From Naegleria gruberi (lineage: Eukaryota): a stretch of DNA of 15,028 bases. The notes under the pieces were generated by a model that worked only from the letters and a program-made list of their open reading frames with translations, was not told the DNA's origin and ran no database searches. Made by a program: the position numbers and the translations under genes. Of the stretch, positions 6,125-15,028 are shown piece by piece. Location: the NCBI GenBank assembly GCA_000004985.1, contig GG738983.1; one strand, given 5' to 3'. Within the stretch, counting starts at the first letter, position 1; each line of letters opens with the position of its first letter.

Positions 6125-6468
6125 CATACCTTTTCAAGCTCCAGAAATTCGTAAAAAGCAAAACTATGATGAAAAGATTGACATTTACAGTCTTGGGGCT
6201 ACTTTATTGTATCTCAAAAACAAGACCTCATATGAAATAATCTGTAAAAAAGACGAATTTGATCTTCAAGTTGACATGCAAACACTCCAATGGGATGATT
6301 TTAAATTTGGAAAAAATATTGGAAATGGTTAATGAAGATCCAAAGAAAAGACCTTCAGCTCAAGAGCTTGCCGATTATTTTACTACTCTTTACAACAACC
6401 CACAAACAACAAACGCAGAAACTAAAGACCAAGAAGATTTCGAAATGCTTTATGATCAAGAAAGATAA
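6125..6468 (+). CDS. Protein kinase, C-terminal lobe only (subdomains VIII-XI); the 5' part is lost in gap 1. The reading frame shifts by +1 between about 6290 and 6330 (frame 0 stops at 6330-6332, frame 1 continues to the stop at 6466-6468).
   Basis: Frame starting at 6126 reads IPFQAPEIRKKQNYDEKIDIYSLGATLLYLKNKTSYEIICKKDEFDLQVDMQTLQWDDFKFGKNIGNG*. This holds the APE motif and the D-x-W-S-x-G-like subdomain IX (DIYSLG). The frame containing 6259 reads ...ILNLEKILEMVNEDPKKRPSAQELADYFTTLYNNPQTTNAETKDQEDFEMLYDQER*, the subdomain XI DPxxRP motif. Removing one A from the A6 run at 6311-6316 gives the continuous ...WDDFKFGKILEMVNEDPKKRPSAQELADYF. Confidence 0.8.
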
Positions 6469-6912
6469 AAAGGTTAGCAAACAAATTGAAGATATTGAAA
6501 TAACATTTAGAACATTGCCTTAATTGGAAAGAATCCTGTTGGAATATTTTCAAATGGTAAAGGTGTCAAATCTTTCCAAAACTTTAAAATCAATTGAGAC
6601 ATTTGAAAGATTGACAACTCTTTCTACCCAAATTCATAATTCCATTTGCAACGATCTACTTCTCTTTTCCTTAATATCTCAAATCTTTTGCCAATCTTTG
6701 CAAAAATGATAAAACTTTTGCAAATTTGTTTACAAAATCTTACAATGGATCATATTTTACCAATAAATTATGAATTTCAGATGGATTTACATTCTAAAAG
6801 TAAAACACCTCCTTTATCAAATGGGAGTTTGATTATTCTACTAACCTGATATTTCATTGTGATCGGTATTAATGAGAAGGAATTAAATTATATTTAAAAT
6901 ATTTTAAAAAAA

Positions 6913-7980
6913 ATGTCTGAAGATTGGGTTTGTTTTGTGATGCAATTTTATTAATGGGTGTGATGACCATCACAAATAACAGGCCGATAGGACGTATGTG
7001 TTGGAAGCTGTTAAACAACGTGGAAATGCACTTGAATATGTAGATGAATCATTTAAAAAAGATAGAGAATTTATATTGGAAGCTGTAAAACATAATGGAT
7101 GGGAACTTTTATATGTTGATTCATCATTGAAAAAAGATAGGGAAATTGTATTGGAAGCTGTTAAACATAATGGATCAGCTCTCGAATATGCTGATTCATC
7201 ATTGAAAAAAGATAGAGAAATTGTACTGGAAGCTGTTAAACAAAATGGATCAGCACTTAAATATGCTGATTCATTATTTAAAAGAGATAGAGAAATTGTA
7301 TTGGAATTTGTTAAACATAATGGATCAGCACTTAAATATGTTGATTCTTCATTGAAAAAAGATAGAGAAATTGTATTGGAAGCTGTTAAACAATGTGGAC
7401 ATGCAGTTCAATATGCTGATTTATTCATTGAAAAAAGATAGAGAAATTGTATTGGAAGCTGTTAAACAATGTGGACATGCAGTTGAATATGCTGATTATT
7501 ATTCAAAAAGATAGAGAAATTGTATTGGAATCTGTTAAACAAAATGGATCAGCACTTGTATATGCTGATTCATCATTTAAAAAAGATAGAGAAATTGTAT
7601 TGGAAGCTGTTAAACAACATGAATTGGCACTTGAATATGCTGATTCATCTTTACAAAGAGATATCGTTTTTATATATTCACTTTTTAAATTGAACAAAGA
7701 AAATACAAGAAGCTTCTCACCCTCTATAACCAAAACCATTGAAGAAGCCAATATTAATCTTCAGAGAAAGCTGTCAAGCAATATAATTGAACAGCAATAC
7801 TCCAAAATATTTATGGATGAAAAGGATTTATATTATGCTATTGAATTAACAAGTCTCTTTAATCCAACACCAAAAGGTACAATATTCAATTTCAATTCTA
7901 TCTATACACCAATATTTGTTGAAAAGCTTGATTATTTTCCAAATATTGAAACGAATGAACCATTCAGAATTATCCACTGA
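6913..7980 (+). CDS. DUF4116-like tandem-repeat protein (about 8 copies of a 31-aa repeat, consensus SALEYADSSLKKDREIVLEAVKQNG) plus a non-repetitive roughly 100-aa C-terminal tail. Proposed model is join(6913..6927, 6983..7980) with a 55-nt intron. The frame is disrupted by a +1 indel near 7427 and a -2 indel near 7487 (net -1).
   Basis: ORF-track pieces 6998..7441 and 7447..7980 both encode the same 31-aa repeat (LEAVKxNGxALxYxDSSLKKDREIV). The first piece has no internal Met, and an in-frame TAA at 6977-6979 lies just upstream, so a spliced 5' exon is needed. aaaaaaaATGTCTGAAGATTGG (6913-6927) followed by GTTTGT...AATAACAG (6928-6982) joins in frame to GCC GAT AGG ACG TAT... The protein ends at TGA 7978-7980, just before gap 2. 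The name DUF4116 is assigned from memory of the Pfam repeat motif (ALxYAxxxLxxDxExVLxAVxxNG), not from a search. Confidence 0.7.
6928..6982 (+). other. Putative 55-nt intron of the DUF4116-like gene (GTTTGT...AACAG); an alternative donor at 6937 (GTGATG) gives a 46-nt intron
   Basis: Inferred only from the need to join an ATG-containing exon to the Met-less repeat ORF in the same phase. The donor is non-canonical. It contains a small inverted repeat gtgatg-ac-catcac (6961-6974). Confidence 0.35.
7001..7670 (+). repeat. In-frame coding tandem array of 93-bp units (about 7.5 copies, roughly 85-95% identical). Units 5 (7373-7466) and 6 (7467-7557) are near-identical duplicates (QCGHAV variant), 94 and 91 nt long.
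   Basis: Direct reading of the sequence. ttggaagctgttaaacaa...gattcatcattgaaaaaagatagagaaattgta recurs with a 93-nt period. Unit 5 has gatttattcattg where the canonical unit has gattcatcattg (+1). Unit 6 has gattattattcaaaaagatagag where the canonical unit has gattcatcattgaaaaaagatagag (-2). Confidence 0.9.
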
Positions 7981-8000
7981 AACTCTTCTTTCAGCCAACT

Positions 8001-11000
8001 NNNNNNNNNNNNNNNNNNNNNNNNNNNNNNNNNNNNNNNNNNNNNNNNNNNNNNNNNNNNNNNNNNNNNNNNNNNNNNNNNNNNNNNNNNNNNNNNNNNN
8101 NNNNNNNNNNNNNNNNNNNNNNNNNNNNNNNNNNNNNNNNNNNNNNNNNNNNNNNNNNNNNNNNNNNNNNNNNNNNNNNNNNNNNNNNNNNNNNNNNNNN
8201 NNNNNNNNNNNNNNNNNNNNNNNNNNNNNNNNNNNNNNNNNNNNNNNNNNNNNNNNNNNNNNNNNNNNNNNNNNNNNNNNNNNNNNNNNNNNNNNNNNNN
8301 NNNNNNNNNNNNNNNNNNNNNNNNNNNNNNNNNNNNNNNNNNNNNNNNNNNNNNNNNNNNNNNNNNNNNNNNNNNNNNNNNNNNNNNNNNNNNNNNNNNN
8401 NNNNNNNNNNNNNNNNNNNNNNNNNNNNNNNNNNNNNNNNNNNNNNNNNNNNNNNNNNNNNNNNNNNNNNNNNNNNNNNNNNNNNNNNNNNNNNNNNNNN
8501 NNNNNNNNNNNNNNNNNNNNNNNNNNNNNNNNNNNNNNNNNNNNNNNNNNNNNNNNNNNNNNNNNNNNNNNNNNNNNNNNNNNNNNNNNNNNNNNNNNNN
8601 NNNNNNNNNNNNNNNNNNNNNNNNNNNNNNNNNNNNNNNNNNNNNNNNNNNNNNNNNNNNNNNNNNNNNNNNNNNNNNNNNNNNNNNNNNNNNNNNNNNN
8701 NNNNNNNNNNNNNNNNNNNNNNNNNNNNNNNNNNNNNNNNNNNNNNNNNNNNNNNNNNNNNNNNNNNNNNNNNNNNNNNNNNNNNNNNNNNNNNNNNNNN
8801 NNNNNNNNNNNNNNNNNNNNNNNNNNNNNNNNNNNNNNNNNNNNNNNNNNNNNNNNNNNNNNNNNNNNNNNNNNNNNNNNNNNNNNNNNNNNNNNNNNNN
8901 NNNNNNNNNNNNNNNNNNNNNNNNNNNNNNNNNNNNNNNNNNNNNNNNNNNNNNNNNNNNNNNNNNNNNNNNNNNNNNNNNNNNNNNNNNNNNNNNNNNN
9001 NNNNNNNNNNNNNNNNNNNNNNNNNNNNNNNNNNNNNNNNNNNNNNNNNNNNNNNNNNNNNNNNNNNNNNNNNNNNNNNNNNNNNNNNNNNNNNNNNNNN
9101 NNNNNNNNNNNNNNNNNNNNNNNNNNNNNNNNNNNNNNNNNNNNNNNNNNNNNNNNNNNNNNNNNNNNNNNNNNNNNNNNNNNNNNNNNNNNNNNNNNNN
9201 NNNNNNNNNNNNNNNNNNNNNNNNNNNNNNNNNNNNNNNNNNNNNNNNNNNNNNNNNNNNNNNNNNNNNNNNNNNNNNNNNNNNNNNNNNNNNNNNNNNN
9301 NNNNNNNNNNNNNNNNNNNNNNNNNNNNNNNNNNNNNNNNNNNNNNNNNNNNNNNNNNNNNNNNNNNNNNNNNNNNNNNNNNNNNNNNNNNNNNNNNNNN
9401 NNNNNNNNNNNNNNNNNNNNNNNNNNNNNNNNNNNNNNNNNNNNNNNNNNNNNNNNNNNNNNNNNNNNNNNNNNNNNNNNNNNNNNNNNNNNNNNNNNNN
9501 NNNNNNNNNNNNNNNNNNNNNNNNNNNNNNNNNNNNNNNNNNNNNNNNNNNNNNNNNNNNNNNNNNNNNNNNNNNNNNNNNNNNNNNNNNNNNNNNNNNN
9601 NNNNNNNNNNNNNNNNNNNNNNNNNNNNNNNNNNNNNNNNNNNNNNNNNNNNNNNNNNNNNNNNNNNNNNNNNNNNNNNNNNNNNNNNNNNNNNNNNNNN
9701 NNNNNNNNNNNNNNNNNNNNNNNNNNNNNNNNNNNNNNNNNNNNNNNNNNNNNNNNNNNNNNNNNNNNNNNNNNNNNNNNNNNNNNNNNNNNNNNNNNNN
9801 NNNNNNNNNNNNNNNNNNNNNNNNNNNNNNNNNNNNNNNNNNNNNNNNNNNNNNNNNNNNNNNNNNNNNNNNNNNNNNNNNNNNNNNNNNNNNNNNNNNN
9901 NNNNNNNNNNNNNNNNNNNNNNNNNNNNNNNNNNNNNNNNNNNNNNNNNNNNNNNNNNNNNNNNNNNNNNNNNNNNNNNNNNNNNNNNNNNNNNNNNNNN
10001 NNNNNNNNNNNNNNNNNNNNNNNNNNNNNNNNNNNNNNNNNNNNNNNNNNNNNNNNNNNNNNNNNNNNNNNNNNNNNNNNNNNNNNNNNNNNNNNNNNNN
10101 NNNNNNNNNNNNNNNNNNNNNNNNNNNNNNNNNNNNNNNNNNNNNNNNNNNNNNNNNNNNNNNNNNNNNNNNNNNNNNNNNNNNNNNNNNNNNNNNNNNN
10201 NNNNNNNNNNNNNNNNNNNNNNNNNNNNNNNNNNNNNNNNNNNNNNNNNNNNNNNNNNNNNNNNNNNNNNNNNNNNNNNNNNNNNNNNNNNNNNNNNNNN
10301 NNNNNNNNNNNNNNNNNNNNNNNNNNNNNNNNNNNNNNNNNNNNNNNNNNNNNNNNNNNNNNNNNNNNNNNNNNNNNNNNNNNNNNNNNNNNNNNNNNNN
10401 NNNNNNNNNNNNNNNNNNNNNNNNNNNNNNNNNNNNNNNNNNNNNNNNNNNNNNNNNNNNNNNNNNNNNNNNNNNNNNNNNNNNNNNNNNNNNNNNNNNN
10501 NNNNNNNNNNNNNNNNNNNNNNNNNNNNNNNNNNNNNNNNNNNNNNNNNNNNNNNNNNNNNNNNNNNNNNNNNNNNNNNNNNNNNNNNNNNNNNNNNNNN
10601 NNNNNNNNNNNNNNNNNNNNNNNNNNNNNNNNNNNNNNNNNNNNNNNNNNNNNNNNNNNNNNNNNNNNNNNNNNNNNNNNNNNNNNNNNNNNNNNNNNNN
10701 NNNNNNNNNNNNNNNNNNNNNNNNNNNNNNNNNNNNNNNNNNNNNNNNNNNNNNNNNNNNNNNNNNNNNNNNNNNNNNNNNNNNNNNNNNNNNNNNNNNN
10801 NNNNNNNNNNNNNNNNNNNNNNNNNNNNNNNNNNNNNNNNNNNNNNNNNNNNNNNNNNNNNNNNNNNNNNNNNNNNNNNNNNNNNNNNNNNNNNNNNNNN
10901 NNNNNNNNNNNNNNNNNNNNNNNNNNNNNNNNNNNNNNNNNNNNNNNNNNNNNNNNNNNNNNNNNNNNNNNNNNNNNNNNNNNNNNNNNNNNNNNNNNNN

Positions 11001-12527
11001 NNNNNNNNNNNNNNNNNNNNNNNNNNNNNNNNNNNNNNNNNNNNNNNNNNNNNNNNNNNNNNNNNNNNNNNNNNNNNNNNNNNNNNNNNNNNNNNNNNNN
11101 NNNNNNNNNNNNNNNNNNNNNNNNNNNNNNNNNNNNNNNNNNNNNNNNNNNNNNNNNNNNNNNNNNNNNNNNNNNNNNNNNNNNNNNNNNNNNNNNNNNN
11201 NNNNNNNNNNNNNNNNNNNNNNNNNNNNNNNNNNNNNNNNNNNNNNNNNNNNNNNNNNNNNNNNNNNNNNNNNNNNNNNNNNNNNNNNNNNNNNNNNNNN
11301 NNNNNNNNNNNNNNNNNNNNNNNNNNNNNNNNNNNNNNNNNNNNNNNNNNNNNNNNNNNNNNNNNNNNNNNNNNNNNNNNNNNNNNNNNNNNNNNNNNNN
11401 NNNNNNNNNNNNNNNNNNNNNNNNNNNNNNNNNNNNNNNNNNNNNNNNNNNNNNNNNNNNNNNNNNNNNNNNNNNNNNNNNNNNNNNNNNNNNNNNNNNN
11501 NNNNNNNNNNNNNNNNNNNNNNNNNNNNNNNNNNNNNNNNNNNNNNNNNNNNNNNNNNNNNNNNNNNNNNNNNNNNNNNNNNNNNNNNNNNNNNNNNNNN
11601 NNNNNNNNNNNNNNNNNNNNNNNNNNNNNNNNNNNNNNNNNNNNNNNNNNNNNNNNNNNNNNNNNNNNNNNNNNNNNNNNNNNNNNNNNNNNNNNNNNNN
11701 NNNNNNNNNNNNNNNNNNNNNNNNNNNNNNNNNNNNNNNNNNNNNNNNNNNNNNNNNNNNNNNNNNNNNNNNNNNNNNNNNNNNNNNNNNNNNNNNNNNN
11801 NNNNNNNNNNNNNNNNNNNNNNNNNNNNNNNNNNNNNNNNNNNNNNNNNNNNNNNNNNNNNNNNNNNNNNNNNNNNNNNNNNNNNNNNNNNNNNNNNNNN
11901 NNNNNNNNNNNNNNNNNNNNNNNNNNNNNNNNNNNNNNNNNNNNNNNNNNNNNNNNNNNNNNNNNNNNNNNNNNNNNNNNNNNNNNNNNNNNNNNNNNNN
12001 NNNNNNNNNNNNNNNNNNNNNNNNNNNNNNNNNNNNNNNNNNNNNNNNNNNNNNNNNNNNNNNNNNNNNNNNNNNNNNNNNNNNNNNNNNNNNNNNNNNN
12101 NNNNNNNNNNNNNNNNNNNNNNNNNNNNNNNNNNNNNNNNNNNNNNNNNNNNNNNNNNNNNNNNNNNNNNNNNNNNNNNNNNNNNNNNNNNNNNNNNNNN
12201 NNNNNNNNNNNNNNNNNNNNNNNNNNNNNNNNNNNNNNNNNNNNNNNNNNNNNNNNNNNNNNNNNNNNNNNNNNNNNNNNNNNNNNNNNNNNNNNNNNNN
12301 NNNNNNNNNNNNNNNNNNNNNNNNNNNNNNNNNNNNNNNNNNNNNNNNNNNNNNNNNNNNNNNNNNNNNNNNNNNNNNNNNNNNNNNNNNNNNNNNNNNN
12401 NNNNNNNNNNNNNNNNNNNNNNNNNNNNNNNNNNNNNNNNNNNNNNNNNNNNNNNNNNNNNNNNNNNNNNNNNNNNNNNNNNNNNNNNNNNNNNNNNNNN
12501 NNNNNNNNNNNNNNNNNNNNNNNNNNN
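8001..12527. other. Assembly gap (run of 4527 N). It swallows the 3' end of the minus-strand Cys-rich gene and lies just downstream of the DUF4116-like gene stop.
   Basis: Uninterrupted n characters. ORF-track entries 7916..12532, 7991..12547 and the 7846..12527 portion of 7846..15021 are artifacts. Confidence 0.99.
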
Positions 12528-15028
12528 TGTAATTGTAATTTTGACAATAATTATTATTAGAAATTAAACTAATGTAAATTGGAACTGTCAAGGTAAGAAC
12601 AACTCCAGAAGAATCTAATTGTTGAGTGACTCTTGAATCAGAAATCAAATCAGAAATAGAAGTAGAAATAGAATATTGAGTTTCACATGTCAATTGACTT
12701 GTAGAATTTGTGACAAGATCAGTAACATTTCTTTCACAAGTAGAAATTTCAGAGAATGATAATCTTGTCATGTTTGTAGATCTTGAAAGAATATTAGAAA
12801 CTGAAATGGTATACATAATCTTTGAAGATCCTAAATTTGTAACTGAAACCTTTGGCGGAGAATTAATAAACGAAAGACAATTCTCCGTCTGAATTTCACA
12901 CATTGAACCACTTGAATATGGAGGACATGTGAGACAAGATGTGGAATTGATACAACTTTCACATGTAGATGGACAAGTATTACTACAATCTGAACCATAT
13001 AATCCATTAAAACATTTAGAACATTGATTTGGAGATGAACATGTAATGCAATTCTCATTACAAACTGGAATTTGACATGTTGGACCTGTCCATCCAGATC
13101 TACATGTTGAACATGATACCTCTGATGAACATGATTTGCAATTAGATGGGCATGTTATATTACAATAACTTCCATAATATCCTTCATTACATTCTAAACA
13201 ATCACCTGTACTTGTTGAACAGGTTGCACAATTGGAAACTTTACAAACTTTCTCATTACAATATTGACCTTTCAAACCATCTAAACACTTATTACATGTT
13301 TCACTTGATGAACATACTTCACAATTAACTAAACATTTGAGTCTACATAATTTAGAAGTATCATAAAATCCACTCTTACATGATTGACAATTAGATGCAG
13401 ATGGAAGACAATTAGAAACTGAACTAATCTCACAATTAGTACCATTATATCCATTTGGACATGAACAATTATTAGGTGAGAGACATGAACCAATACCAGA
13501 ACATACACTAGCAACATCAGCTCTCTTTCCACCACAAATTGGAACTTCACAATTAATTCCTGCATAACCTGTTTTACAATAACACATATCCATCTCTTCA
13601 CAAATTCCATTTCCACTACATACATTAGGATCTGAATCAAATAATCCATTACACATGGTTGGTGAATAAATAATATTTCCAATAACTTGCTTTCCACCAC
13701 CACCTCCCCATATCGTACCTGTAGTAGGTGAATTTGTTCCTGGATATGGAAATTTATAGAAATCTCCTAGAATGTAATTATTACCATTATATGCTGTGAA
13801 CAAAAGAGAGTTATAATTTTGTATGAATGTTATTCTAGTGATTCTCTCAGATGTTCCAATAAATGATGTAGATAAGAGTGTTGGATAGGAAACTCTTGGT
13901 AGTAATGACCCCCAGTAACCTGTGTAAAATATTTTTCCACTCTCCATTAGATACAATACGAAATATTGTGCAAAAGTAATGGACAAGAGAATTTCACTTC
14001 CAAAAGTAGTAATATCTAATTCCAGTGGTGAATATTGGCAAAGGCCAGTATTTGTACCGTAGTAACTATCAGAAATTGGACCCCAACCATATAATCTTCT
14101 TGATTCTCTACTGTAAGCGAAACATAAATATCGAGAATGGCAAGAAAGGTATGAAATTTTGTGTGGAATAGCTAATTTTGTAAAGTTGGTTTTGTAAACT
14201 CCAAAAAATCCACTTGGACAACATCCAGCAACAGATAATTCACCAAAAGATCTAACATTTCCTTCTTTAGTCAAAAAAAAGGAAAAGTAATTATTTGTAT
14301 AAACATCAATAAATGTCTCATTAATACCAGTATTGTATATCATTGTTGGAGAAATAGGGAATGAAACATAAGGACTTTGTGGAGTAATTATTAAAATACC
14401 TGGAACAGATGTTGTTGCCATGAATAATGTAGAGGAACTAGATAGACTTGTAAAAGGTGCAAATGTAGCATTATTGAAAAGTAATGTACTACTTGCAGCT
14501 GCAGACTGTGTTGGAAGCGTAAAGCCGAATATAACATCTCTTCTATTTCCAATGCTGAAAAAGCCATTTGATTCAAAATATCTAATACGATATGGTAAGA
14601 CTCCATCAATTCCAGCGGTAGTTGTAATTGTAGATCTAAAATAATTTGGACCAGTTGAGCAAGTTTGTCCAGTAAAACCAGCATCACATTTTGTGCAAGT
14701 CTTATCATCTGAACAAGTCAAACAATTAGGAATGCATGTAAAAGAACAAGTAGCACCAAATGTTCTTGGTAAACATGATGAACACAAATATGGTGTTGAA
14801 CATTTAAGGCAATTTTCTGGACAAATAACTGAGGAACAATTAACGCCTCCATAACCAGAGTTACAAACACAAACACCGTCAATACATTGACCATTCGCAC
14901 AATTGGTACATTTAGGTGCACATGTTGGTGGTGGAGAGGATGTTATAGAATTCTTACATGTCAAACAACTTGTTGCACTCTTACATGTTAAACAATTAGG
15001 ATTACAATAGAATTGACACAATGGACCG
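12528..15028 (-). CDS. Large cysteine-rich secreted/surface protein, partial at both ends (5' end beyond window position 15028, 3' end in gap 2). Contains tenascin/EGF-like and furin-like Cys repeats, a central RCC1-like beta-propeller-like domain, a second EGF-like repeat array, an S/T-rich stalk and a hydrophobic segment.
   Basis: Continuous minus-strand ORF from 15021 down to the gap edge (about 830 codons) with standard-code Gln codons throughout. It opens with repeats such as CNPNCLTCKSATSCLTCKNS and CPENCLKCSTPYLCSSCLPRTFGATCSFTCIPNCLTCSDDKTCTKCDAGFTGQTC, and later CPSNCKSCSSEVSCSTCRSGWTGPTCQIPVCNENCITCSSPNQCSKCFNGLYGSDC (period about 31-32 aa). N-x-S/T sequons are frequent (NATF, NFTK, NETF, NITC, NGTN, NSTS, NMTR, NVTD). 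Confidence 0.85.
12562..12603 (-). other. Hydrophobic segment VVLTLTVPIYISLI (candidate transmembrane helix) immediately before the gap edge
   Basis: 14 mostly aliphatic residues following the S/T-rich stalk and followed by SNNNYCQNYNY. The usual basic stop-transfer residues are not visible because the sequence enters the gap. Confidence 0.35.
12604..12894 (-). other. Ser/Thr-rich, N-glycosylation-sequon-dense stalk-like region
   Basis: LSFINSPPKVSVTNLGSSKIMYTISVSNILSRSTNMTRLSFSEISTCERNVTDLVTNSTSQLTCETQYSISTSISDLISDSRVTQQLDSSG. It is low in Cys, and S+T exceed 35% by eye. Confidence 0.55.
12895..13656 (-). repeat. Second EGF/tenascin-like repeat array (about 8 units of 31-32 aa)
   Basis: Runs from MCNGLFDSDPNVCSGNGICEEMDMCYCKTGYAGINCEVPICGG through CPSTCESCINSTSCLTCPPYSSGSMCEIQTENC with regular 6-8 Cys per unit and G-x-x-G-x-x-C endings. 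Confidence 0.75.
13657..14646 (-). other. Central Cys-poor domain of about 330 aa with RCC1-like repeat signatures (putative beta-propeller), ending in a GGGGG linker (13695-13709)
   Basis: Motifs RRLYGWGPISDSYYGTNTGLCQYSPLEL, AQYFVLYLMESGKIFYTGYWGSLLP and NYFSFFLTKEGNVRSFGELSVAGC match the RCC1/BLIP-II blade pattern (hs-ala-Lt-dG-kvYtWG-n-GqLG...P). Inference from motif memory only. Confidence 0.4.
14647..15028 (-). repeat. N-terminal (in this window) tenascin/EGF-like cysteine-rich repeat block of the Cys-rich protein
   Basis: C-x2-C-x(4-6)-C-x2-C-x(5-8)-G-x2-C spacing repeated at least 4 times, ending ...CTKCDAGFTGQTCSTGP. Confidence 0.7.

What the first reader, a model, noticed from the sequence alone, without database searches (positions are those of the whole stretch)
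6913..7000. Met-less repeat ORF implies a 15-nt first exon and a roughly 55-nt intron with a non-canonical GTTTGT donor
The long repeat ORF has no in-frame ATG and is preceded by an in-frame TAA (6977-6979). The only ATG in Kozak-like A-rich context (8 A's then ATG at 6913) gives MSEDW and then hits a stop unless it is spliced. GT at 6928 and AG at 6981-6982 join exactly in phase: MSEDW|ADRTYVLEAVKQRGN... A 5-codon first exon and a mini-intron is a gene structure that automated predictors usually miss, so this gene may be unannotated or truncated in existing annotations.
Basis: inference. Interest (0 to 1): 0.5.

Follow-up and report, generated by a model that had tools for sequence, protein, structure and literature searches.

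The report
Missed five-codon first exon in Naegleria
The repeat gene very probably does start with a five-codon exon (MSEDW) followed by an ordinary 55-base GT-AG intron, a layout gene predictors miss; this is a correction to the Naegleria gruberi annotation and not new biology, and this copy is also broken by frameshifts further downstream.

Summary
The window is a 15,028-bp Naegleria gruberi scaffold, 63% of it N. The gene is a DUF4116 (PF13475) repeat gene. Comparison supports it. (1) A paralog (NAEGRDRAFT_57050, locus L002) has the same layout: A-run, ATG, 4 codons ending in TGG, GTAGGT, a 44-nt intron, TAG, then the first repeat. (2) The A-run, mini-exon and donor form the best-conserved DNA block between the two loci (22/27 identical, against 33-46% around it). 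(3) Intron-less homologs start M..W-x-[DN]R..[VC]L.AV. The junction 6927|6983 gives MSEDW|ADRTYVLEAV with the same spacing and scores about 8 bits above every rival model. The donor is not non-canonical: it is GT-AG, and both loci fit GTNNGT. No annotated protein matches this gene, and the paralog's published model is a chimera that uses the same acceptor but a wrong upstream exon. Caveats: there is no transcript evidence. The gene as assembled has 2 certain and 1 probable frameshift downstream and runs into a gap, so it is either a poorly sequenced copy or a pseudogene.

The parts
6906..6912 (+). A-run directly before the start codon (AAAAAAA ATG)
   Evidence: Read directly. The same GAAAAAA ATG context occurs in the paralog L002, and it is part of the 22/27-identical block.
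6913..6927 (+). Coding part of exon 1: ATG TCT GAA GAT TGG = MSEDW. The TGG encodes the N-terminal cap Trp.
   Evidence: The paralog has ATG TAT GAT CAT TGG. Trp lies 6 residues before [VCI]L.AV in the intron-less homologs L005, L006, L007, L015, P0090, P0112 and P0044.
6928..6982 (+). Phase-0 GT-AG intron, 55 nt: GTTTGT...AACAG. Two of its three reading frames contain stops (frames 0 and 1), so it must be removed.
   Evidence: The paralog has an intron at the same position (44 nt, GTAGGT...GCTAG). Retention would give MSEDWVCFVMQFY*.
6983..7659 (+). Start of exon 2: one Ala codon, then nine 75-nt DUF4116 half-repeat units from 6986, each beginning GAT AGR (Asp-Arg).
   Evidence: Pfam PF13475 E=1.8e-64. 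TRF reports period 75 and 8.9 copies. Units laid out in register.
7418..7430 (+). Frame break 1: an extra T in unit 6 (7361-7436 is 76 nt), moving frame 2 to frame 0.
7494..7514 (+). Frame break 2: 2 nt missing in unit 7 (7437-7509 is 73 nt), moving frame 0 to frame 1. Units 6 and 7 are near-identical QCGHAV copies.
7660..7929 (+). Non-repeat C-terminal domain up to FVEKL, shared with NAEGRDRAFT_57050 (GTIFNFNSIYTPIFVEKL against GNIFNFNQSYSSQFVEKL).
7930..8000 (+). Probable third frame break (an extra G after CTT). The protein then continues as IIFQILKRMNHSELSTETLLSAN, matching the paralog's IIVQILKSISSLDSTCSASVS, and runs into the N gap. The apparent stop at 7978-7980 is then not the real end.
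   Evidence: The match is short and weak (E=6.5 on its own), so this is an inference.

Best explanation
This is the 5' end of a Naegleria gruberi DUF4116-repeat gene, a paralog of NAEGRDRAFT_57050. Transcription starts shortly upstream of an A-run. Translation starts at ATG 6913. After five codons (MSEDW) a phase-0, 55-nt U2-type GT-AG intron (6928-6982) is spliced out, joining TGG directly to GCC GAT AGG. The product begins MSEDW-ADRTYVLEAVKQ... . The exon-1 residues are not a dispensable leader. They supply the Trp-containing short helix that caps the first repeat, the counterpart of the xSLKK helix before each internal repeat. Shown here: the sequence anatomy, the conserved architecture in a paralog, and the agreement with intron-less homologs. 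Inferred: that splicing actually occurs, the role of the cap, and the transcription start. As assembled, this copy is interrupted downstream by 2 certain and 1 probable frameshift and by a scaffold gap. It is therefore either a low-quality Sanger contig of a functional gene or a decaying paralog that still keeps its 5' structure.
For: Coordinates and phase verified. Source identified: the island-3 protein is 99% identical to XP_002668670.1 'predicted protein, partial [Naegleria gruberi]' on a contig of exactly 15,028 bp. Paralog locus L002 (98% aa identity to XP_002681027.1) reads AAAAAA ATG TAT GAT CAT TGG | GTAGGT..44 nt..GCTAG | AAA TAC GAC AGA GAT, giving MYDHW|KYDRDQVL. DNA alignment of the two loci: 22/27 identical across the A-run, mini-exon and GTNNGT, against about 33% in the rest of the intron and about 46% in exon 2. 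Intron-less homologs begin MDWSDREECLAAVK, MDWSNREECLAAVK, MAKDKWADRDYVLKAVK, MSKWDDYKYCLEAVK and MTDWKNKKSVLVAV. A profile built only from these scores the 6927|6983 model at 86.5 bits against 77.8-79.1 bits for all seven rivals, and only that model aligns into the leader. Chance of an exon-1 peptide ending in Trp is about 3% per locus. The published model for the paralog uses the same acceptor. In the AlphaFold model of P0090 (N-terminus MAKDKWADRDYVL) residues 3-7, including the Trp, form a helix, with mean pLDDT 80 for residues 1-10.
Against: No transcript, EST or proteomic evidence was available. The only two intron-containing examples are paralogs in one species, so the shared structure is partly inheritance. 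For L002 the profile gain from adding exon 1 is only about 1 bit, because of one extra residue. No clear branch-point or polypyrimidine signal is visible in the window's intron. The contig carries several indels, so an indel within 6913-6990 cannot be excluded on sequence quality alone.
Confidence: 0.8

Rival explanations
1. The locus is a pseudogene. The 5' exon-intron structure is a relic inherited from a functional ancestor, and the gene no longer makes a protein.
For: There are two certain frameshifts and one probable one in about 1 kb of coding sequence. The neighbouring kinase 3' end has a frameshift in an A6 run. The XDH-like fragment on the same scaffold has an in-frame TAA. The 833-codon ORF on island 3 is unbroken, so errors are not uniform across the scaffold. 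No annotated protein corresponds to this gene.
Against: Island 2 is a 1.9-kb contig between two gaps of about 5 kb in a small Sanger scaffold, the kind of place where low-coverage read errors gather (sequencing technology from PMC9928731). Two of the breaks lie in two near-identical tandem units that are hard to assemble. The start codon, Trp codon, donor, acceptor and phase are all intact. This reading does not contradict the gene structure; it only questions present function.
Confidence: 0.35
2. There is no intron. A 1-nt assembly or sequencing indel near 6980-6990 hides a continuous ORF that starts at ATG 6954 or 6963 (MGVMTITNNRP-DRTYVL...).
For: Frame 0 is open from ATG 6954 through 7040. 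The contig demonstrably carries indels at roughly 1 per 400 nt of coding sequence.
Against: This N-terminus lacks the conserved Trp and scores 78.0-78.3 bits against 86.5. It does not explain why the paralog has the same ATG-4 codons-TGG-GT block, conserved at 22/27 nt. The prior for an indel in this particular stretch of about 10-30 nt is only a few percent.
Confidence: 0.05
3. The acceptor at 6982 is real, but it is joined to a different donor: the GTGATG at 6937 (MSEDWVCF|ADR...) or an exon further upstream, as in the published model of the paralog.
For: Both are in phase. The JGI/NCBI model of NAEGRDRAFT_57050 joins the same acceptor to a far upstream exon with a GTGAGT donor.
Against: The 6936 junction puts the Trp 9 residues, not 6, before VLEAV and scores 79.1 bits. 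The upstream exon in the published paralog model is an out-of-frame reading of the WWE domain of a neighbouring Pif1-like gene, so it is an artefact. The upstream kinase tail has no GT between its last conserved motif and its stop codon (read).
Confidence: 0.05

Closest known systems
Naegleria gruberi NAEGRDRAFT_57050 (XP_002681027.1 / D2V3Y7_NAEGR), seen here as locus L002
   Same: DUF4116 repeats followed by the same non-repeat C-terminal domain (..IFNFN..Y...FVEKLII.QILK). A-run, ATG, 4 codons ending in TGG, a GTNNGT donor, a short phase-0 intron, and an acceptor immediately before the first repeat.
   Different: About 43% amino-acid identity. The intron is 44 nt, not 55, and has no alignable similarity. 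There is one extra residue between Trp and Asp-Arg. It has a downstream kinase in the same frame, which the published model fuses to it; in the window that region is hidden by the gap. Its published 5' end is a chimera with the neighbouring Pif1/WWE gene.
Intron-less DUF4116 proteins with a short Trp cap (P0090, P0112; loci L005-L007, L015) from metagenomes and a viral contig
   Same: N-terminus M-x(1-4)-W-x-[DN]-[RK]-x-x-[VCI]-L-x-A-V-K, followed directly by the repeat array. P0090 shares W-A-D-R-x-Y-V-L-x-A-V with the spliced product.
   Different: The cap is encoded continuously with the repeats and there is no intron. They lack the family-specific C-terminal domain. The organisms are unrelated; some cluster members come from the 0.22-1.6 um Tara fraction.
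Start-codon-proximal spliceosomal introns with very short coding first exons (general eukaryotic phenomenon; from my own knowledge)
   Same: GT-AG ends, phase 0, a few codons after the ATG, routinely missed by ab initio predictors.
   Different: Nothing mechanistically different was found. Only the extended donor (GTTTGT) departs from the GTAAGT/GTATGT textbook consensus.

Membership tests
U2-type (GT-AG) spliceosomal intron | GT at the 5' end and AG at the 3' end | tested here: met
   GTTTGT at 6928 and AACAG ending at 6982
U2-type (GT-AG) spliceosomal intron | Removal joins two coding segments in phase into a product that makes sense | tested here: met
   MSEDW|ADRTYVLEAV matches the N-termini of intron-less homologs and scores 86.5 bits against 78 or so for rivals
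U2-type (GT-AG) spliceosomal intron | Intron position conserved in a homologous gene | tested here: met
   The paralog L002 has an intron in the same phase, directly after the Trp codon
U2-type (GT-AG) spliceosomal intron | Recognisable branch site or polypyrimidine tract | tested here: inconclusive
   The L002 intron is pyrimidine-rich before its TAG. The window's intron has only weak candidates (TTAAT at 6951-6955; ATAAC just before the AG). No N. gruberi consensus was available.
U2-type (GT-AG) spliceosomal intron | Spliced transcripts observed | not testable with these tools
   No RNA-seq or EST resource was available, and N. gruberi gene positions are not on record
   The termini are GT and AG, the donor is GTTTGT, and there is no TCCTTAAC (read)
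DUF4116 (Pfam PF13475) repeat protein | Score above Pfam's gathering threshold | tested here: met
   213.5 bits against a cut-off of 24.9 for the first ORF segment, and 72.6 bits for the second
   An intact ATG, Trp codon, donor, acceptor and phase are present and conserved with the paralog
Disrupted gene or pseudogene (any cause) | The reading frame is interrupted within conserved coding sequence | tested here: met
   Units of 76 and 73 nt among seven units of 75 nt, plus a probable shift after FVEKL. Whether these are sequencing errors or real could not be tested.

The most novel reading that the evidence does not exclude
The block 'A-run, ATG, 4 codons, TGG, GTNNGT' is the most conserved DNA between two paralogs that are otherwise near saturation. 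It could mark a family-wide, selectively maintained start-proximal intron in Naegleria DUF4116(-kinase) genes with a regulatory role. For example, regulated retention would yield only a 13-residue peptide, or the intron might enhance expression. It would also imply that the family is systematically mis-modelled in the reference annotation.
Probability: 0.12. Interest if true: 0.4.

Novelty: new member of a known kind. Interest (0 to 1): 0.22.

Why it matters
The main value is for annotation. It shows that a DUF4116 gene on a small N. gruberi scaffold has no counterpart in the protein collections. It shows that the published model of its paralog (XP_002681027.1) is a chimera, because the predictor missed a 15-nt coding first exon. 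It also gives a simple DNA signature (AAAATGNNNGANNNNTGGGTNNGT upstream of a Met-less DUF4116 ORF) for repairing other family members. A small by-product is the recognition of a conserved Trp-containing N-terminal cap on DUF4116 repeat arrays in eukaryotic, bacterial and viral homologs. It does not change any general understanding of splicing.

Tried and rejected
1. Variant genetic code (ciliate TAA/TAG = Gln) to read through the TAA at 6977. Rejected: a TGA at 6938 still blocks the frame with no ATG in between, and the 833-codon island-3 ORF has no TAA or TAG.

2. Initial guesses at the organism from composition and motifs (Trichomonas, Entamoeba with its GTTTGT donors, dictyostelids, ciliates). 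All were superseded when the scaffold was identified as N. gruberi.

3. Kinase-DUF4116 fusion by splicing from the upstream kinase. Rejected: there is no GT in the kinase tail before its stop, and the family order is DUF4116 then kinase.

4. XDH fragment used for taxonomic placement. Uninformative: best hits are 47% identical and from scattered taxa.

5. Searches with the C-terminal domain profile found nothing.

6. The whole-protein metagenome and viral scans gave only generic DUF4116 loci. These were still useful for N-termini.

7. Retrieval of N. gruberi reference loci failed, so no wider sample of N. gruberi introns could be collected.

8. Literature searches for a Naegleria splice-site consensus or for GTTTGT donors gave nothing usable.

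10. P0120 and P0105, hits with non-ATG starts, were checked as possible third examples. L016 has a normal upstream ATG, and in L017 the gene starts 8 nt from the contig edge, so neither helps.

11. Rfam and tRNA scans of the window were empty.

12. The spacer 6468-6912 holds no convincing ORF on either strand.

Full report
**What the window is**

- Only 5.5 kb of the 15,028 bases is real sequence: three islands (1-1150, 6125-8000, 12528-15028) separated by N runs of 4,974 and 4,527 bases.
- The long minus-strand ORF on island 3 is 99% identical to XP_002668670.1, "predicted protein, partial [Naegleria gruberi]". That protein is recorded on a contig of exactly 15,028 bp.
- The window is therefore one of the small scaffolds of the Sanger-sequenced N. 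gruberi NEG-M assembly: 40.9 Mb, 35% GC, 1,977 scaffolds (PMC9928731, Table 1).

**Check of the observation**

  - Seven A's precede ATG 6913.
  - ATG TCT GAA GAT TGG (MSEDW) ends at 6927, and GTTTGT starts at 6928.
  - AG is at 6981-6982, and the interval is 55 nt.
  - The frame from 6983 reads ADRTYVLEAVKQRGN and has no Met.
  - TAA 6977-6979 is in frame with it, and TGA 6938-6940 blocks the same frame further up.
- The repeat is DUF4116 (PF13475, E=1.8e-64).
- It forms nine 75-nt units from 6986, each starting GAT AGR.
  - About 66% of resampled upstream sequences contain some in-phase ATG..GT that can be joined to a fixed AG.
  - The real sequence offers seven such combinations.

**Comparative evidence**

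- *Paralog with the same layout.*
  - One hit, P0057, shares the gene's non-repeat C-terminal domain (GNIFNFNQSYSSQFVEKL against GTIFNFNSIYTPIFVEKL).
  - Its contig, L002, is a strain of N. gruberi: 98% amino-acid identity to XP_002681027.1 / NAEGRDRAFT_57050. It is therefore a paralog at about 43% identity.
  - Its repeat ORF is also Met-less.
  - Just upstream lies GAAAAAA ATG TAT GAT CAT TGG | GTAGGT...(44 nt)...GCTAG | AAA TAC GAC AGA GAT, giving MYDHW|KYDRDQVL.
  - Both loci therefore have an A-run, an ATG, four codons ending in TGG, a GTNNGT donor, a short phase-0 intron, and an acceptor one or two codons before the first Asp-Arg.
- *DNA conservation between the two loci.*
  - 22 of 27 positions are identical across the A-run, mini-exon and donor.
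  - About 33% are identical in the rest of the intron.
  - About 46% are identical in the first 78 nt of exon 2.
  - About 41% are identical upstream.
  - The mini-exon with its donor is therefore the best-conserved block.
- *Intron-less homologs.*
  - Homologs from metagenomes and one viral contig encode the same N-terminus in one piece:

| Source | N-terminus |
|---|---|
| L005 | MDWSDREECLAAVK |
| L006, L007 | MDWSNREECLAAVK / MDWSNREECLASVK |
| P0090 | MAKDKWADRDYVLKAVK |
| L015 | MSKWDDYKYCLEAVK |
| P0112 | MTDWKNKKSVLVAV |

  - In all of them the Trp lies six residues before [VCI]L.AV.
  - The junction 6927|6983 gives MSEDW-ADRTYVLEAV with exactly this spacing. W-A-D-R-x-Y-V-L-x-A-V is identical to P0090.
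- *Profile test.*
  - A profile was built only from the intron-less proteins.
  - The alternative donor at 6937, the indel models starting at ATG 6954 or 6963, the other in-phase ATGs and the exon-less ORF score 77.8-79.1 bits.
- *Chance.*
  - An exon-1 peptide ending in Trp arises in about 3% of resamples.
  - The 17-nt pattern ATGNNNGANNNNTGGGT is expected 0.01 times in the window and occurs once, at 6913.

**What the exon-1 residues do (inference)**

- In it, residues 3-7, which include the Trp, form a short helix. Mean pLDDT for residues 1-10 is 80.
- That helix sits where each internal repeat has its four-residue helix.
- The mini-exon thus seems to encode the N-terminal cap of the repeat solenoid. 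That would explain why it is kept.

- The intron is not non-canonical.
  - It has GT and AG termini.
  - The two Naegleria donors, GTTTGT and GTAGGT, share G+1, T+2, G+5 and T+6.
  - Nothing resembles a U12-type donor.
  - I could not obtain a Naegleria donor consensus, so I cannot say how common GTTTGT is there.
- The 15 nt is only the coding part of exon 1, which also carries the 5'UTR.
- The alternative junction 6936/6983 is disfavoured.

**Annotation status**

- The prediction that annotation would miss this structure is borne out.
  - No protein more than 61% identical to this gene exists in the 5.8-billion-protein collection, which does contain the N. gruberi proteome.
  - The published 1,164-residue model of the paralog uses the same acceptor (its exon begins KYDRDQVL).
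  - It joins that exon to ...LLLNNFSVQQTLFGAGKMELIGNCTIEFHTKSNKVI.
- In L002 that peptide lies at 1077-1184 in frame 3, followed by GTGAGT.
  - This is inside the 450-codon frame-2 ORF of a neighbouring gene with Pif1-2B and WWE domains.
  - The model is therefore a chimera.
  - The real ATG sits 32 nt after that gene's stop codon.

**State of the gene downstream**

- Seven repeat units are exactly 75 nt.
- The two near-identical QCGHAV units are 76 nt (7361-7436) and 73 nt (7437-7509), shifting the frame 2 to 0 to 1.
- After FVEKL (about 7930) an extra G probably shifts it again.
  - The other frame reads IIFQILKRMNHSELS, against the paralog's IIVQILKSISSLDS.
  - This match is short and weak.
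- The sequence then enters the gap.
- Other breaks on the scaffold:
  - The neighbouring kinase 3' end (6126-6467) has a shift in an A6 run.
  - The XDH-like fragment on island 1 has an in-frame TAA.
  - The 833-codon island-3 ORF is intact.
- I cannot tell whether island 2 is a low-coverage, error-prone contig or a decaying paralog. Either way the 5' structure stands.

**Verdict**

- It is an ordinary GT-AG intron close to the start codon.
- Its value is as an annotation correction for N. gruberi DUF4116 genes, not as new biology.

Noticed in passing
L002 1077-1446, and protein P0241 (XP_002681027.1): The published N. gruberi model NAEGRDRAFT_57050 is chimeric. Its exon at L002 1077-1184 is an out-of-frame reading of the WWE domain of a neighbouring Pif1-like gene, spliced over 261 nt to the DUF4116 acceptor. 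It also fuses the downstream kinase.
   Followed up: yes
L002 1584-1651 and 2779-2784: The metagenomic strain differs from the reference model in two ways. It has a 34-nt tandem duplication that breaks the frame, where the reference reads ...KKDKEVVLAAVKHDG. It also has a TAG stop between the DUF4116 part and the kinase (DDHL*TLAQ), where the reference model reads DDHRETLAQ. This could be a real polymorphism, an assembly artefact or a forced model; I could not tell which.
   Followed up: partly
window 6126-6467 (+): The 3' end of a protein kinase gene (Pfam Pkinase, E=9e-7). It has a +1 frame break in the A6 run inside GGAAAAAATATTGG (6309-6322) and ends at TAA 6465-6467. The 5' part is lost in the gap.
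   Followed up: partly
window 1-~700 (-), stop at 209-211: N-terminal [2Fe-2S] and Fer2_2 part of a xanthine dehydrogenase/aldehyde oxidase-like gene with an Asn-rich leader. It has an in-frame TAA ([15 protein letters not shown]) at a position where homologs have an ordinary residue. No N. gruberi protein matches it; the best hits are about 47% identical. It looks unannotated and may be a pseudogene.
   Followed up: partly
window 12529-15027 (-): An unbroken 833-codon ORF of EGF/teneurin-like Cys-rich repeats. It equals XP_002668670.1 (partial) and falls in the same 90% cluster as NAEGRDRAFT_81427 (1,608 aa) on a 304-kb scaffold. The small scaffold may therefore be a haplotype variant or a recent segmental duplicate.
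   Followed up: partly
P0090, P0112, L005-L007, L015 (N-termini): Many DUF4116 arrays from unrelated sources start with a short Trp-containing cap, M-x(1-4)-W-x-[DN][RK]-x-x-[VCI]L.AV. Another large class starts MKDNKDR..VLAAV, with Asn in place of the Trp. I did not check whether Pfam describes this capping motif.
   Followed up: partly
L001 (ERZ25039523 contig_17084, 3.12 Mb): The best-scoring homologs (P0001-P0004 and at least 12 more) all lie on one 3.1-Mb contig, in tandem clusters. They share an N-terminal ..IPNEVLGIIFDQVVNQ.. segment before the repeats. The organism was not identified.
   Followed up: no
L003 (P0021): A single continuous 581-codon ORF that combines DUF4116 repeats with a C-terminal protein kinase domain. 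This supports the idea that DUF4116-then-kinase is a recurring architecture, and that a kinase may lie in the window's gap 8001-12527.
   Followed up: no
window 6849-6855 (+): A perfect TACTAAC, the yeast-type branch-site heptamer, lies in the spacer about 60 nt upstream of the ATG, with an AG about 20 nt downstream. No in-phase exon could be tied to it, so it is probably chance.
   Followed up: no
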